Shown one piece after another: positions 42,383 to 49,582 of a DNA stretch of 64,000 nucleotides. The DNA lies in NCBI RefSeq assembly GCF_054482595.1, contig NZ_CM137008.1; one strand, written 5' to 3'. The position numbers and the translations under genes were made by a program. The notes under the pieces were generated by a model. It saw only the letters and a list, made by a program, of their open reading frames with translations. It was not told the origin of the DNA and did no database searches. Position 1 is the stretch's first letter, and each line of letters starts with the position of its first letter.

Positions 42383-42612
42383 CCATCAACGAAAAAGCCC
42401 ACATCTGTGGGCTTTCATGTCGCCAGGAGCCGCGGCTCCTTTGCGTATCCTTTTTTGTCTCCTCACCGTCTGGTCGGTGTCCTGCTGAGACTGCTAACTT
42501 CCTGTTTTTGTTGGTGTTGTCCTTACACCGTCCAATCATGAGGGCTGGCGGAGTCTGAATAAATTTCCCAACCTATTAAAAGTAAGAGATTTTTTCGTAT
42601 TCAACTTTCAGT

Positions 42613-42640
42613 TGTGTACCTAAACGTGTACCAATTTTCT
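42613..42640 (+). repeat. 28-bp direct repeat (distal copy), possible Int arm-type site
   Basis: GTGTACCTAAACGTGTACCAATTTTCTC identical to 49450-49477. Confidence 0.8.
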
Positions 42641-42692
42641 CACTGTAGCAGTGTTGTATCTCGTATAAACAGGGAACTAAATATGCTGTTAA

Positions 42693-43574
42693 TCATGGGG
42701 CAGCATCATTAGGAGGGTATACATTGACCGATGTACTTACACGATGAAACTCTAGTATGTTGCCAGTATGGTGACCAGGGATAGCTTCAAACACCCCAAG
42801 AAATCGGTACAGTGTCCTGTTCAACTCATCACGAGAATGTGCCATAACAATTCGTTTATCCCAGCGTTCTGTGTATCCCTCATCATCCTTTATATTCCGC
42901 TCTATGATTTTGTTACCATCATCAGTCAATTCATTTCCCCAATCTGAATTTCCATATAGTTTTGGAAACCAAACCATGCATTTTCCTGATAGACCCATTG
43001 CTTCACTTATGTGAGAAGGAATGCTCCAACCGCCAGACTGATGATGTCCTTTGTTGTAACCGAAACAGTTCAAAGCATCCCGGTGGTATCTGAAGACGGC
43101 ATCTGGACCTACAGATATCCTTCCTGCCTTAAGATGAGGACGAGCTGTATATTTATTATCATAATCCCATTCTTTGAATTTTTTATCTTTAATCATTCTA
43201 TTTTTACGATTGCGTATCAACTCAATAAATTCATTGATATAACGATCGAAAATTTCAAGACTTATTTCGCTGGCGGGAATTCTTTTCTCTAAAAATCCTG
43301 TAACTTCAGTAATATCCATACGACGTTTCGCATCATCTATTTGTGATTGCTCACTGTTGTGATGCCCTTCATCAATTTCAAGATAAAGTTCCAGTTGTGG
43401 GAAAAATAAATCTGCCAAATAGATTTTTCCATTTTCTTTTCTGACACATTGCTGGCAGACAAATTCAATGTCGGGATCATTTAAAAGATGATAAATGCGA
43501 GTTACTGCATAATGTTCCCATCGTTTTTTTGAGGTTTTCGTAAGTGAACGTAGGATGTAATCAGTTTTATCCAT
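42693..43574 (-). CDS. hypothetical protein (293 aa), N-terminal restriction-endonuclease-like (PD-(D/E)xK / DUF559-like) motif
   Basis: motif YLADLFFPQLELYLEIDEGHH resembles the D...(I/V)ExDG core of Vsr/DUF559-type nucleases; cargo position in the element. Confidence 0.5.
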   Translation of the reverse strand: MDKTDYILRSLTKTSKKRWEHYAVTRIYHLLNDPDIEFVCQQCVRKENGKIYLADLFFPQLELYLEIDEGHHNSEQSQIDDAKRRMDITEVTGFLEKRIPASEISLEIFDRYINEFIELIRNRKNRMIKDKKFKEWDYDNKYTARPHLKAGRISVGPDAVFRYHRDALNCFGYNKGHHQSGGWSIPSHISEAMGLSGKCMVWFPKLYGNSDWGNELTDDGNKIIERNIKDDEGYTERWDKRIVMAHSRDELNRTLYRFLGVFEAIPGHHTGNILEFHRVSTSVNVYPPNDAAP

Positions 43575-43845
43575 TTATATGCCTTCCTTCTTTGTTCTTC
43601 ATGTAATGTGCTTTTTCTTATGGCGATAGTGTTACCTATCGCCATAAGATGCGTTAGTATTTTTTTAATCTAACTGTTTATACTGTTAACTTCGATGATT
43701 TTCTATTTTATATCATGTGGTTAAGCGGTGGTGAGTTGGTGAGGAGTGAAAAGTCGAATCTTCCCCTTTGTGATTTTTGCTCGTTCTGGATCTGCCCGGT
43801 CAGGCGATGTGGTGGGGGGGGGTAAAAAGTTTTTTTAGGTTTTAC

Positions 43846-43938
43846 TGTTCACACTGTTCACCTCTGGTTTTTTATTAATAATTTCATGGTGATACAGGGT
43901 GAAGATACGGTGAAGGGTGAACAGTGGATTGTTCACCT
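43846..43938. promoter_or_regulatory. cluster of TGTTCACC-type iterons (P4 ori/crr-like)
   Basis: about six copies of TGTTCAC(C)/GGTGAACA in both orientations within 95 bp. Confidence 0.6.
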
Positions 43939-43989
43939 TGTGGCAATGGCCAGAAAGGAAAAGACCGGCTGTTGCCGGTCTGAGTGAGG

Positions 43990-44565
43990 TTATGTTGCTA
44001 CGGGTTCGTCGCATTTCGGTAGCCAGTCGCCGTAGCTTTCCTCTTTCAGCGACAGATTGGTTTGTATCCCCTGCTTAGTGTGCCGCTTCTCATAATTCAG
44101 GCCGTACTCTTTCAGCATCATGGGCAGCCCCAGCCCGAACATTTTCAGGCTGAGTACGTTCCTATACCCGTTAGCCTCCATATAGGCCAGATACGCGTGA
44201 TAGAGATATTTACGATAATTACGCGGGATGATGCTGGCATTCCCCATAAACATCCCGTTGGTCTGCGGGAGCATTTCCAGATAGCCGCAAAAATCAAACG
44301 TAGGGTCAGCATCGCGCTTGATGCTGAGCGCCTCGTCGGAATTCTGCTGTGACTGGAGCAGTGCGCAGGCTGCCATCGGGTCGCTGAACTTCTGCATGAG
44401 CTGGCGCACAATCACGGCCAGCTCGCGCGCAATTTTATCCCTGAGCTGCGGGTCGCGTTCCTCCGGCGCAATTTGCTCCGGGAAGTGAATAATCACCCGG
44501 CGACGTGACACACCACCGCTGCGGTCGGTGAAGCGCATGGGGTTATTGTTCACTGCCAGAATCAC
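43990..44565 (-). pseudogene. C-terminal remnant of a P4 alpha-type primase-helicase
   Basis: 191-aa ORF lacking the primase/helicase body; sits next to the iterons. Confidence 0.5.
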
Positions 44566-44722
44566 CGCCGGAATGTGTGTTGAGTACGGGTTCTGGTATT
44601 TCGGGTCAACCGAGACCGCATCGCCGCCGGTGATGGCCTTAAGCCCTGCGCCGTCACCGCCGCCGCGTAAAGTACAGGGCTGCTACAGCTCGCCGTTCCG
44701 GCATTAATCAGGAGAGAGACTC

Positions 44723-47352: not shown

Positions 47353-47357
47353 TACAT

Positions 47358-48203
47358 ATGTGGACACTACCTTTACCAGATGATGCGGATAGAATGAGCG
47401 AGTTATTAACCGCTTTAACGTATAAAAATGGAAATCCTAAGTATGCTTTAACACAAGATGAAAAGGATAAAATTGAAACTATTTATACTTTATATCACGA
47501 TCGTAAAGCAACTCCCTGTGCTGAATTTTTAGCAGAGGAAATAAGTGATGAAACCCAAAATGCTATAAAAACAGCTTATTCAGAAGTGCAAATAAATGGA
47601 CGGCTTTCAACCCTTCGCTCAAGGATTTTATTAAGTTCTAAAAAATGCCCATTATGTGGGATCGAATCATCAACCGACCTAGATCATTATCTTCCCGAAT
47701 CAATATATAAATGTCTCGCAGTATATTCAAGAAACCTGATACCGACCTGTCATAAGTGCAATAATAAAAAAAGAGCTGGTGTAGCAGAAAATGGAGTTGG
47801 ATTTATTCATGTGTATTATTTTGATGAGCCCGATGGTGTATTTTTCGTTGCCAATACTGAAATGATAGATGGTGCTTTAGTAATTGATTTTAATATCAAT
47901 ATGATCGAGGGTATGACTCGAGAGGTATATGATTCATTATGCTTTCAAAATAGAGTTGTTAACCTAAATGAAAGGTTAAAGATGGAAGCGAATGATTTTT
48001 TAGGGGGGCTCTATACTTCACTTGAAGAAACATATAATTCTGCAGGCCAAGAAGGATTAAGATTATTTCTAAAAAGAACTAGGGATGACTATACCAGACG
48101 TTATGGGCTTAATCATTGGAGAAGAGCATTGATAGATAGTCTATCCGATAATGTGGAGTTCCTTGACGCTGGTTTTATTACTGCCTTAGGAACTCCAGAG
48201 TGA
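47358..48203 (+). CDS. HNH endonuclease-domain protein (281 aa)
   Basis: CPLCG...DLDHYLPESIY...NLIPTCHKCNNKK HNH/zinc-finger motif; start 5 nt after the ATPase stop. Confidence 0.8.
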   Translation: MWTLPLPDDADRMSELLTALTYKNGNPKYALTQDEKDKIETIYTLYHDRKATPCAEFLAEEISDETQNAIKTAYSEVQINGRLSTLRSRILLSSKKCPLCGIESSTDLDHYLPESIYKCLAVYSRNLIPTCHKCNNKKRAGVAENGVGFIHVYYFDEPDGVFFVANTEMIDGALVIDFNINMIEGMTREVYDSLCFQNRVVNLNERLKMEANDFLGGLYTSLEETYNSAGQEGLRLFLKRTRDDYTRRYGLNHWRRALIDSLSDNVEFLDAGFITALGTPE

Positions 48204-48205
48204 GT

Positions 48206-49399
48206 TTACTGGTGGGGATGAATATGTCGTCCCCACCAATTCATCAATTCAATTCTTGCGTGTAAATATGTTGAGCGATTGTAGGCTTTTCGTACTTCAT
48301 TTCTATCTGAATGAGCAAGAGCAGCCTCAATTACATCAGCATTAAAACCGGCTTCATTCATTGCCGTACTTGCAATCGAACGTAAACCATGTGCAACCAA
48401 TTTCCCACCATAACCTATTCGCTTAAGTGCAGCATTGGCAGTTTGGCTATTCATAGGTTGTTTTGGATTATTTCTGCTGGGAAAAACATGTTCTCGATGT
48501 GCACTAATAGGTTTCATCACATCCAGAATTTCTAATGCTTGTGGTGATAAAGGAACAATGTGTTCACGCTTAGCCTTCATTCGTTCGGCGGGAATCGTCC
48601 AGAGTTTGGCATTGAGATCGATCTCTACCCACCGAGCACCAGAAGCCTCAGAAGGGCGCACTAGGGTCAGAAGCTGCCATTCAATAAGACAGCGAGTCGG
48701 AACAGACAGATTCGACATGACCAGGGAACGCATAAGCTTAGGTAATTCTTCTGGCCGTAGCGTGGGCATATTTTGCTTTTTGGGTTTCTCAAAAGCCATT
48801 CCTACACCCGAAGCCGGGTTGGCATCTATCAGACCGGTATTAACCGCATAAATCATTATTTCGTTAATACGCTGAACTAGGCGACGAACCGTCTCTAATG
48901 CGCCACGTGCTTTGATTGGCTCCAATGCTTCAACAATCGTTCTGGCCTTTATATCCTGAACGGGCATCGCACCGATTGCCGGGAACACGTCTTTATCCAA
49001 AGAACGCCAAATATCCTTTGCATAATCCTCTGTGACACTTCTGCTTTTAATCTGGAACCAGTTAGCGGCCACAGTTGAGAAAATGCTGTCTAACTCAATC
49101 TGGCGTTGTGCTGACGCTTGCTCCTGTTGCTGTTGTGGATCCATGCCTTGCGCGAGCGTGGTTAAGTGCTGGTCGCGTATCTGACGAGCTGCTGCGAGTG
49201 TAAGGGCAGGGTATGAGCCGAGACTCAAATTTGTGCGGCTGCTGCTTCCCGGTCGTTGATAACGGAAGCGTCAGAGTTTTTTACCGGAGGTTTTGACGAG
49301 TAAGAACAGGCCATCACCATCATGCAGGGTGAAGTCTTTTTCGCGGGGTTTCGCTTTGAGGATTTCGTTGTTAGTGAGGGGGCGTGTAATGCGCGCCAT
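48206..49399 (-). pseudogene. intA: P4-type tyrosine integrase with in-frame TGA at codon 43
   Basis: N-terminus MARITRPLTNNEILKAKPREKDFTLHDGDGLFLLVKTSGKKL then TGA then RFRYQRPGSSSRTNLSLGSYPALT... in the same frame; stop sits where related integrases have Trp (TGG). Confidence 0.75.
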
Positions 49400-49449
49400 G
49401 TCTGGATCCCTTCCATAATTGGTACACGTTTAATGGACCACAGTATAGC

Positions 49450-49477
49450 GTGTACCTAAACGTGTACCAATTTTCTC
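49450..49477 (+). repeat. 28-bp direct repeat (int-proximal copy)
   Basis: GTGTACCTAAACGTGTACCAATTTTCTC identical to 42613-42640. Confidence 0.8.
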
Positions 49478-49514
49478 TGGATTTAGCCGGATGTTCTCGG
49501 ACAACGACAGACAC

Positions 49515-49548
49515 AAAAAAGCCCGCAGGGCTTGTGCCGTGCGGGCTT
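49515..49548 (-). terminator. intrinsic terminator downstream of ssrA
   Basis: minus-strand hairpin GCCCGCACGGCACAAGCCCTGCGGGC followed by TTTTTT. Confidence 0.7.
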
Positions 49549-49582
49549 TCTGTACTTCACCGGACGTATCCGGATCATCATT

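What the first reader, a model, noticed from the sequence alone, without database searches (positions are those of the whole stretch)
42540..49582. Only about 7 kb lies between ssrA and the ypjA side, where E. coli K-12 carries the much larger CP4-57 prophage
In the K-12 reference the ssrA 3' end is followed by a large cryptic prophage (CP4-57). Here the same integration site holds a short P4-like remnant with different cargo, which illustrates how variable the cargo at this tmRNA hotspot is.
Basis: partly seen in the sequence, partly recalled or inferred. Interest (0 to 1): 0.4.

Follow-up and report, generated by a model that had tools for sequence, protein, structure and literature searches.

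The report
Decayed P4-like defence islet at ssrA
The 7 kb next to the tmRNA gene is the immobilised wreck of a P4-type phage satellite that still carries two intact anti-phage gene sets; this is a real but already well-described kind of variation at a known integration hotspot.

Summary
The island spans window 42542-49582 (7,041 bp), between the ssrA 3' end and an eroded ssrA-like attR copy beside ypjA. K-12 holds the 22,031-bp CP4-57 at the same junctions.

The island is not a subset of CP4-57. The two share only about 70 bp after ssrA, a 60%-identical integrase and the attR remnant.

It is a decayed P4-like satellite:
- The integrase (W43 to TGA) and psu (Q92 to TAG) are pseudogenes.
- A roughly 4.4-kb deletion removed delta, sid, vis, the immunity region and two thirds of the alpha primase.
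- cos, crr and the P4-style integrase arm repeats at both ends survive.

Two low-GC cassettes are intact. One is a Septu-type ATPase+HNH pair in the published psu-int hotspot; these exact proteins are system #17 in Rousset et al. 2022. The other is a PvuRts1I-family hydroxymethylcytosine-dependent nuclease in a second, rarely filled slot between crr and attR.

Among 5,426 complete E. coli genomes the site is empty in 1,183. It holds a P4-like satellite in at least 1,040, K-12-type CP4-57 in 362, and this islet in 15, which form one clone.

Only the second slot is mildly new.

The parts
49583..49945 (-). ssrA (tmRNA). Its 3' end (about 49583-49605) is the attL core / integration target.
   Evidence: ARAGORN finds tag ANDENYALAA. 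Rfam RF00023 scores 292 bits full length. There are 2 SNPs vs K-12.
49512..49582 (-). Island-borne segment just after ssrA, with an intrinsic-terminator-like hairpin (49519-49533) followed by a T-run.
   Evidence: About 85% alignable to the left end of CP4-57 and absent from empty-site genomes. The hairpin is listed.
49450..49477 (.). attL-side arm-type integrase-binding repeats (two tandem 12-mers, GTGTACCTAAAC GTGTACCAATTT), 105 bp from the core.
   Evidence: Perfect 28-bp direct repeat with 42614-42641. The geometry matches the annotated P4 attP arm repeats, which lie 113 and 54 bp from the core.
48206..49399 (-). P4-family tyrosine integrase pseudogene (TGG to TGA at codon 43, 49271-49273).
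   Evidence: Translation. Pfam Arm-DNA-bind_3, Phage_int_M and Phage_integrase. 94% aa identity to the intact KSC9 integrase, which has Trp at that codon. 60% aa to K-12 IntA and 36% to P4 Int. RefSeq annotates 'internal stop'.
45487..48262 (+). Slot-1 cassette (the psu/cos-int defence hotspot), 33% GC. It holds a PtuA-like ABC/AAA ATPase (45670 or 45691 to 47352) and a PtuB-like HNH nuclease (47358-48203), i.e. a Septu-type pair.
   Evidence: PADLOC: PDC-M01A 1e-99, PtuA 1e-73 near full length, PDC-M01B 3e-37, PtuB 2e-8. Walker A GRNGCGKS 218-225 and Walker B LVLFDE 423-428; HNH motif CPLC..DH..CHKC. Cassette borders come from comparison with KSC9. The identical proteins are listed as system #17 'Septu' in Rousset 2022 Table S1.
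45462..45480 (+). cos-like site (GGCGTGGCGGGGAGAGCAT), 173 bp after psu.
   Evidence: 3 mismatches to the P2/P4 cohesive end; 0.01 matches expected by chance. P2-like phages match window 45328-45508.
44723..45289 (+). psu pseudogene (CAG to TAG at codon 92, 44996-44998).
   Evidence: Translation. Pfam Psu hits both halves. The intact KSC9 homologue has Gln at that codon.
44655..44662 (.). Deletion joint fusing the interior of alpha to the 3' end of delta. About 4.4 kb is lost: alpha N-terminal ~554 codons, orf106, icd/kil, immunity region, vis/alpA, sid and most of delta. The joint lies in a CACC(A/G)CC microhomology.
   Evidence: Three-way alignment with the intact satellite of strain MARGA_3. 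The IMG/VR relative L014 is colinear up to exactly 44660.
43990..44658 (-). C-terminal ~223 codons of the alpha primase-helicase (fragment).
   Evidence: Pfam Pox_D5. 83-84% nt identity to P4 alpha. RefSeq annotates 'missing N-terminus'.
43651..43989 (.). crr-like region (TGTTCAC-type repeats) plus the alpha terminator hairpin at 43962-43981.
   Evidence: Matches P4 crr/alpha-terminator region 4292-4636. Hairpin. Alignments.
42642..43650 (-). Slot-2 cassette, 38% GC, with an intact PvuRts1I/AbaSI-family modification-dependent endonuclease gene (42693-43574, 293 aa).
   Evidence: PADLOC mREase_II 4e-122 full length. Pfam PvuRts1I-like_N plus SRA. PDB 4oky PvuRts1I E=4.6e-114 over 1-287. MARGA_3 and HKUOPY1 have ~110 bp at this place, and KMi029 has a different gene with the same borders.
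42614..42641 (.). attR-side arm-type integrase-binding repeats, 55 bp from the attR core remnant.
   Evidence: Perfect copy of 49450-49477. Conserved in four other ssrA P4-like satellites.
42542..42559 (.). Eroded attR core (GGGCTGGCGGAGTCTGAA), a degenerate copy of the ssrA 3' end and the equivalent of K-12 psaA. It lacks the terminal 4-5 nt present in K-12, KMi029 and MARGA_3.
   Evidence: Alignments.
37679..42382 (+). ypjA autotransporter gene (chromosomal flank, context only).
   Evidence: ORF; RefSeq annotation of the identical sequence.

Best explanation
A P4-like phage satellite integrated into the 3' end of ssrA through a P4-family tyrosine integrase of the same ssrA-targeting clade as CP4-57 IntA. 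It brought two foreign cassettes. One is a Septu-type ATPase+HNH pair in the known cos/psu-int hotspot. The other is a PvuRts1I-family nuclease between crr and the attR-proximal arm sites.

The element then lost its mobility. A microhomology-mediated ~4.4-kb deletion removed alpha (N-terminal part), the immunity region, vis, sid and delta. Single nonsense mutations killed int and psu, and the attR core eroded.

What remains is a fixed, vertically inherited 7-kb islet whose only intact genes are the two defence cassettes. The inferred functions are these. The PvuRts1I-like enzyme would cut DNA containing 5-hydroxymethyl- or glucosyl-hydroxymethyl-cytosine, as in T-even phages. The Septu pair would act as an ATPase-controlled HNH nuclease against other phages.

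Shown here: the anatomy, borders, decay lesions, family assignments, population distribution and clonality. Inferred: expression and anti-phage activity.
For: - Borders and empty site.
- P4 homology (psu, alpha, crr, cos, arm-repeat geometry).
- Intact relatives at the same site have the order attR-crr-alpha-orf106-icd-vis-sid-delta-psu-[cargo]-int-ssrA.
- Decay lesions.
- The cassettes are full length against family models with catalytic motifs intact.
- Low GC of the cassettes (33% and 38%) against ~51-54% for the backbone.
- The island occurs in exactly 15 of 5,426 genomes, always with both cassettes.
- Those 15 are exactly the 15 perfect matches of the neighbouring 11.9-kb core DNA, and the next genome is 99.6%. 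This indicates one clone, as expected for an immobile element.
- An intact satellite (alpha 777 aa) carrying the same slot-2 cassette exists in IMG/VR.
- The published hotspot concept and the identical Septu proteins.
Against: - There are no expression or phenotype data.
- The sigma-70 and terminator pattern scan is not above shuffled expectation.
- The 15 copies are virtually identical, so selection on the cargo cannot be measured within the clone.
- dN/dS for the nuclease against L014 rests on only 4 differences.
- One clone-mate (APEC37) already has the HNH gene split, so retention is not absolute.
- NCBIfam PtuA (Ec78 equivalog) scores far below its cutoff.
- Pfam finds no domain in the HNH partner. 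Its assignment rests on PADLOC models, the visible motif and the label in Rousset's table.
Confidence: 0.9

Rival explanations
1. The 7-kb segment is a deletion derivative (subset) of CP4-57.
For: It has the same att junctions, a related integrase (60% aa) and a shared ~70-bp ssrA-proximal terminator segment.
Against: BLASTN (word size 7) and TBLASTN of every island ORF against the K-12 ssrA-ypjA locus find nothing else in common. Integrase DNA is only 68% identical. The island has psu, cos, alpha and crr, which CP4-57 lacks.
Confidence: 0.02
2. The element is still a mobile mini-satellite that relies on Int/Vis from a related resident P4-like element and on a P2-type helper acting at its cos site.
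For: The cos-like site, crr and both sets of arm repeats are intact. Intact satellites with 94%-identical integrases exist in the species.
Against: The attR core is eroded and lacks the terminal nucleotides. There is no vis, delta, sid or epsilon, int is dead, and the element is 7 kb against ~11.6 kb for P4. Its distribution is strictly clonal. No identical copy is found elsewhere in any genome.
Confidence: 0.05
3. The perfect 28-bp direct repeats are target-site duplications. On this view the element inserted into a secondary site ~105 bp downstream of ssrA, inside an older island, rather than into ssrA.
For: The repeats are perfect and bracket almost the whole island.
Against: Empty-site genomes lack everything between 42542 and 49582, including the sequence outside the repeats. 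Each repeat is a pair of tandem 12-mers placed 105 and 55 bp from the cores, mirroring the P4 attP arm sites at 113 and 54 bp. The repeats are conserved next to attR in five independent satellites. K-12 has analogous but different repeats at both ends of CP4-57.
Confidence: 0.03
4. The cargo genes are intact only because decay is recent. On this view the islet is neutral junk rather than a retained defence locus.
For: All 15 copies are 99.9-100% identical, so little time has passed. The alpha fragment shows dN/dS 0.04 against an intact homologue, which means the truncation is young relative to the divergence. APEC37 has already lost the HNH reading frame.
Against: Three independent inactivating events hit the ~3.2 kb of backbone, while none hit the 3.4 kb of cargo coding sequence in 14 of 15 genomes. 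Both cassettes belong to families with demonstrated anti-phage or restriction activity.
Confidence: 0.2

Closest known systems
P4-like satellite psu-int defence hotspot (Rousset, Depardieu et al. 2022, Cell Host Microbe; PMC9122126)
   Same: The cassette sits between the cos/psu side and int, with conserved borders and a different system in each relative: Gabija-like, DRT3, retron St85, AAA+DUF4435 (PARIS-type), a STAS-like trio, a kinase/phosphatase pair. The two proteins here are identical to their system #17 'AAA_15/AAA_21 | HNH_4', which has 80 occurrences and is labelled Septu.
   Different: The carrier here is not a functional satellite but a truncated, immobilised remnant. It also carries a second cassette outside the published hotspot. 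WP_021557107 is absent from their tables.
Phage satellite P4 (NC_001609)
   Same: It shares psu, cos, alpha C-terminus, crr, the alpha terminator, the attP architecture with paired arm 12-mers on both sides of the core, and gene order and orientation.
   Different: The integrase is only 36% identical and targets ssrA rather than a leucine tRNA gene (the P4 target is from my own knowledge). delta, sid, vis, cI, epsilon and two thirds of alpha are deleted. P4 has only ~190 bp between the attP core and crr, with no gene cassette.
CP4-57 cryptic prophage of E. coli K-12
   Same: It has the same att site (ssrA 3' end with a psaA-type attR), an integrase of the same clade (60% aa) and a homologous ssrA-proximal terminator segment. 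It also carries defence cargo (abpAB, rnlAB).
   Different: It is 22 kb against 7 kb, and no other gene is shared. CP4-57 has intact intA/alpA and can excise, deleting U357 of tmRNA (PMC10107115). This remnant cannot excise.
PvuRts1I / AbaSI family of 5hmC-dependent restriction endonucleases
   Same: It is 293 aa, the same length as PvuRts1I, alignable end to end at E=4.6e-114. It has the N-terminal nuclease plus C-terminal SRA-like domain architecture.
   Different: It lies in a chromosomal satellite remnant, whereas PvuRts1I comes from plasmid Rts1 (my own knowledge). Specificity and cleavage distance are untested.
Septu (PtuA/PtuB; Doron et al. 2018) and PADLOC candidate family PDC-M01
   Same: It is a two-gene operon with the ABC-type ATPase upstream of an HNH nuclease. 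It matches a PADLOC PtuA model (PDLC00282) near full length at 1e-73.
   Different: The best matches are PDC-M01A/B rather than the canonical PtuA/PtuB models. PtuB similarity is confined to the HNH motif region (2e-8). NCBIfam PtuA (retron Ec78 type) scores 40 bits against a cutoff of 500. Sequence similarity to solved PtuA is weak (E about 1e-4).

Membership tests
Genomic island integrated at the tmRNA gene | One end at the ssrA 3' end, the other at a partial direct copy of that end; the precise empty site exists in other strains | tested here: met
   The attR remnant at 42542-42559 copies the ssrA 3' end. 1,183 genomes have the exact empty junction.
P4-like satellite (core set int, psu, delta, sid, alpA/vis, epsilon, alpha; de Sousa & Rocha) | Presence of most of the seven core components | tested here: not met
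   Only int (pseudogene), psu (pseudogene) and a C-terminal alpha fragment remain. delta, sid, vis and epsilon lie in the ~4.4-kb deletion. It is therefore a remnant, not a member in working order.
P4-like satellite | Homology and synteny of the surviving parts with P4 and P4-like elements (psu-cos-hotspot-int; alpha-crr-att) | tested here: met
P4 psu-int defence hotspot | A variable cassette bounded by conserved cos/psu and int sequences, with different systems in related elements | tested here: met
   Borders at 45486/45487 and 48262/48263 against KSC9. At least seven different cargos are seen at the same place. The exact proteins are in the published table.
CP4-57 | Shared gene content beyond the integrase (alpA, yfjI-yfjZ, abpAB, rnlAB ...) | tested here: not met
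   TBLASTN and BLASTN find only int, at 60% aa / 68% nt.
Septu (PtuA+PtuB) | An ATPase with Walker A/B adjacent to and upstream of an HNH nuclease | tested here: met
   PADLOC PtuA 1e-73 and PtuB 2e-8. Motifs GRNGCGKS, LVLFDE and CPLC..DH..CHKC. The two genes are 5 bp apart on the same strand.
Septu (PtuA+PtuB) | Anti-phage activity of the pair | not testable with these tools
'Septu' does not occur in the supplementary file of that paper that lists its cloned constructs (file 3).
PvuRts1I/AbaSI family | N-terminal PvuRts1I-type nuclease domain plus C-terminal SRA-like modified-cytosine-binding domain, full length | tested here: met
   Pfam PF21598 (8.5e-27) and PF18491 (1.6e-22). PDB 4oky E=4.6e-114 over residues 1-287 of 293.
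PvuRts1I/AbaSI family | Cleavage dependent on 5hmC / glucosyl-5hmC | not testable with these tools
   This needs a biochemical or plaque assay.

The most novel reading that the evidence does not exclude
ssrA-type P4-like satellites may have a second, so far undescribed cargo slot, between the attR-proximal integrase arm repeats and crr, that captures single-gene modification-dependent restriction enzymes.

Two unrelated cassettes occupy it with identical borders. One is the PvuRts1I-family gene here and in an intact IMG/VR satellite. The other is a 166-aa DUF6998 protein in strain KMi029 that matches a different PADLOC 'mREase_II' model at 1e-100.

The PvuRts1I cassette is 99.5-100% identical between backbones whose adjacent alpha genes differ by 7.6% (dS 0.37). 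This points to recent cassette exchange.
Probability: 0.35. Interest if true: 0.35.

Novelty: already known. Interest (0 to 1): 0.2.

Why it matters
The locus is a clean, fully delimited example of how a phage satellite turns into a fixed chromosomal defence islet. The mobility and helper-exploitation genes decay while the anti-phage cassettes stay intact.

It also corrects a K-12-centred view of this locus. CP4-57 is a minority state at ssrA (6.7% of complete genomes). Empty sites (22%) and P4-like satellites (at least 19%) are both more common.

None of this changes current understanding, because the hotspot and even this exact Septu pair are already published. The only new lead is the rarely used second cassette slot next to attR.

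Tried and rejected
- CP4-57 subset: rejected by BLASTN/TBLASTN.
- 28-bp repeats as insertion ends: rejected in favour of arm-type Int sites.
- Rfam scan of the whole window: no RNA family inside the island other than tmRNA at its edge.
- Promoter/terminator pattern scan: counts are not above shuffles, so I used it only to locate the ssrA-proximal and alpha terminator hairpins.
- NCBIfam: nothing reached the curated cutoffs for the three cargo proteins.
- Pfam: no domain found in the HNH partner.
- PDB sequence search: only weak hits for the ATPase and none for the HNH protein.
- IMG/VR scan with the ATPase: no close relative.
- Literature search for 'PDC-M01': two genome-survey papers, not opened.
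- Slot 2 as a frequent hotspot: not supported. 57 of the 60 best satellite matches have it empty, the DUF6998 cassette occurs in 1 genome, and the PvuRts1I cassette in 15.
- Some loci (L002, L004, L007) were not available to the Python sandbox. I therefore made the K-12 comparison on an equivalent MG1655 record (L005), and the MARGA_3 comparisons with DNA alignment.

Full report
**Observation**

ARAGORN and Rfam place tmRNA at 49583-49945 on the minus strand. ypjA ends at 42382 on the plus strand.

To find the true island ends I joined window 41400-42540 to 49583-50720 and searched 5,426 complete E. coli genomes. This artificial empty site aligns as a single piece in 1,183 genomes. The junction in strain AB66 reads ...CAATCATGA|TTGGTGGAGC..., where the right side is the ssrA 3' end.

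K-12 has CP4-57 (22,031 bp, 2755941-2777971) plus the 14-bp ssrA pseudo-copy psaA at the same junctions.

**Is it a subset of CP4-57?**

It is not. I ran a sensitive BLASTN of the window against an MG1655 ssrA-ypjA locus. Inside the island it finds three things: about 70 bp after ssrA (49512-49582), the integrase gene at 68% identity, and the attR remnant. TBLASTN of all seven island ORFs hits only intA, at 60% aa.

**Anatomy**

Reading from ssrA towards ypjA:

- An island-borne terminator-like hairpin lies at 49519-49533.
- A 28-bp block of two tandem 12-mers sits at 49450-49477. It recurs perfectly at 42614-42641.
- The integrase gene (48206-49399) has TGG to TGA at codon 43.
- A 2.8-kb, 33%-GC cassette (45487-48262) encodes a 560-aa ABC/AAA ATPase and a 281-aa HNH protein.
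- A cos-like site lies at 45462-45480.
- psu (44723-45289) has CAG to TAG at codon 92.
- A deletion joint at about 44655-44662 fuses the 3' end of delta to the interior of alpha, in a CACCNCC microhomology.
- The last ~223 codons of alpha follow (43990-44658), then its terminator and a crr-like region (43651-43989).
- A 1.0-kb, 38%-GC cassette (42642-43650) holds a 293-aa PvuRts1I-family gene.
- Then come the second copy of the 28-bp block and an 18-nt eroded copy of the ssrA 3' end at 42542-42559.

**The 28-bp repeats are arm-type integrase sites, not insertion ends**

- They lie 105 and 55 bp from the two att cores. The annotated arm repeats of P4 attP lie 113 and 54 bp from its core.
- They are conserved beside attR in other ssrA satellites.
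- Empty-site genomes lack the sequence outside them as well.

**What it was**

Complete relatives sit at the same site in other strains. MARGA_3, KMi029, HKUOPY1, GF3-3, DETEC-E601 and PSS-16 have the order attR-crr-alpha-orf106-icd-vis-sid-delta-psu-[cargo]-int-ssrA. The cargo is different in nearly every one:

- Gabija-like nuclease plus helicase
- a PDC-M36-like protein
- AAA+DUF4435
- DRT3
- retron St85
- a STAS-like trio

A kinase/phosphatase pair appears in another strain. KSC9 is a separate decay variant that lacks alpha.

Compared with MARGA_3, the window element has lost about 4.4 kb. Its int and psu differ from intact homologues by single nonsense changes.

**Cargo**

The ATPase+HNH pair matches PADLOC PDC-M01A/B (1e-99, 3e-37) and a PtuA model near full length (1e-73). 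Walker A/B and a zinc-ribbon HNH motif are intact.

Rousset et al. 2022 describe the psu-int hotspot. Their Table S1 lists these very proteins (WP_021557103 + WP_021557102) as system #17, 'Septu', with 80 occurrences.

The 293-aa protein aligns end to end with crystallised PvuRts1I (E=4.6e-114). It has the PvuRts1I-N and SRA domains. That family cuts DNA carrying 5hmC or glucosyl-5hmC; this is established knowledge and was not tested here.

**Second slot**

The PvuRts1I cassette lies outside the published hotspot, between the attR-proximal arm repeats and crr.

- MARGA_3 and HKUOPY1 have ~110 bp at this place.
- KMi029 has a 166-aa DUF6998 gene with the same borders. It matches another PADLOC methyl-directed-REase model at 1e-100.
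- An IMG/VR contig (L014) holds an intact satellite (alpha 777 aa) with the same PvuRts1I cassette. The cassette is 99.5-100% identical, while the adjacent alpha segment is 92.4% identical (dS 0.37) and psu only 78%. This indicates cassette or tract exchange between diverged backbones.
- The slot is rarely filled. 57 of the 60 best satellite matches have it empty, two of the other three carry an IS1 there, and the DUF6998 cassette occurs in one genome.

**Population picture (5,426 complete genomes)**

| State of the ssrA-ypjA site | Genomes |
|---|---|
| Empty site | 1,183 (21.8%) |
| P4-like satellite with alpha/crr abutting the ypjA-side junction | at least 1,040 (19.2%) |
| K-12-type CP4-57, at least 80% covered | 362 (6.7%) |
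| This islet, always with both cassettes | 15 (0.28%) |

The CP4-57 genomes listed include K-12 laboratory strains and derivatives.

The 15 islet genomes are exactly the 15 perfect matches of the adjacent 11.9-kb core segment, and the 16th-best genome is 99.6%. The islet is therefore confined to one clone and inherited vertically, as expected for an element with a dead integrase, no excisionase and an eroded attR.

In six of the 15, homology stops 38 nt into ssrA. In W619, a lambdoid prophage with its own integrase lies between the remnant and ssrA. The site therefore stays open to other elements.

**Mechanism**

Shown here:
- site-specific integration at ssrA
- the cassette positions
- the three inactivating lesions
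- intact cargo genes
- clonal inheritance

Inferred:
- the two cassettes are expressed
- the PvuRts1I-like enzyme restricts hmC-modified T-even phages
- the Septu pair restricts other phages
- selection for defence explains why the cargo is intact while the backbone is not

The main rival for that last step is that decay is simply recent. The alpha fragment's dN/dS is 0.04, the copies are near-identical, and APEC37 has already split the HNH gene.

**Novelty**

Three things are established in the literature: ssrA as an integration target, CP4-57, and the P4 psu-int defence hotspot (PMC9122126, PMC8628076, PMC10107115). The exact Septu pair is catalogued, and the island is annotated in 15 RefSeq genomes. 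The finding is correct but already known. The only mildly new element is the second cassette slot.

Noticed in passing
window 49583-49620; locus L006 (W619) 27320-47320: In 6 of the 15 clone-mates the match to the window stops 38 nt into ssrA. In W619, a lambdoid prophage lies in tandem between the remnant and the full ssrA; at least ~20 kb is visible in L006, and the ~39-kb size is inferred from record coordinates. It carries its own site-specific integrase and an RloB + AAA-ATPase pair. The att site is therefore still being used after the satellite decayed.
   Followed up: partly
window 49512-49582 (hairpin 49519-49533): The first terminator-like hairpin after ssrA is supplied by the island. 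It is ~85% alignable between this remnant and the left end of CP4-57. Empty-site genomes lack it. In them the next hairpin plus T-run is the one shared with the end of ypjA, about 140 nt downstream. The 3' extension of the tmRNA precursor should therefore differ between strains.
   Followed up: partly
window 42642-43650; L009 (KMi029) 1298-1798; L014 8001-8882: There is a second cassette slot between the attR-proximal arm repeats and crr. It is filled here by a PvuRts1I-family gene and in KMi029 by an unrelated DUF6998 / PADLOC mREase_II gene, with identical borders. It is empty in most satellites.
   Followed up: yes
hits H14/H115/H217, strain APEC37 (NZ_CP127303.1): In this clone-mate the HNH gene is annotated as two hypothetical proteins (a 1-bp length difference). 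The island lies ~2.4 Mb from the recN-side core flank that adjoins it in the window, which implies a chromosomal rearrangement with a breakpoint at or near ssrA.
   Followed up: no
locus L014 (IMGVR_UViG_3300011362_000004) 9127-15401: Beyond attR of the intact satellite, the contig does not continue into ypjA-side DNA. It runs into other genes and a second ssrA-3'-like segment (L014 13816-13949, 83% to window 49494-49617). This suggests a tandem array of ssrA islands.
   Followed up: no
locus L008 (KSC9) 4083-13180; L007 (MARGA_3) 8299-12821: Other decay states occur at the same site. KSC9 has a P4-like element that lacks alpha entirely. ypjA itself is interrupted by IS3 and frameshifts in MARGA_3, and is frameshifted in KSC9.
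   Followed up: no
window 34593-34668: ARAGORN calls this tRNA-Met (CAT). The corresponding gene in the clone-mate W619 is annotated tRNA-Ile. This is consistent with the lysidine-modified ileY-type tRNA of K-12 (my own knowledge).
   Followed up: no
window 1777-2639, 5550-5621, 12219-12296: These are ordinary chromosomal RNA genes: a tRNA-Ser plus four tRNA-Arg(ACG) cluster, MicA sRNA and a naRNA4 (REP-derived) element.
   Followed up: no
K-12 locus L002/L005 versus species survey: K-12's CP4-57 is a minority occupant of the ssrA site (362 of 5,426 genomes). The genomes listed include K-12 laboratory strains and derivatives. Using K-12 as the reference state for this locus is therefore misleading.
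   Followed up: yes
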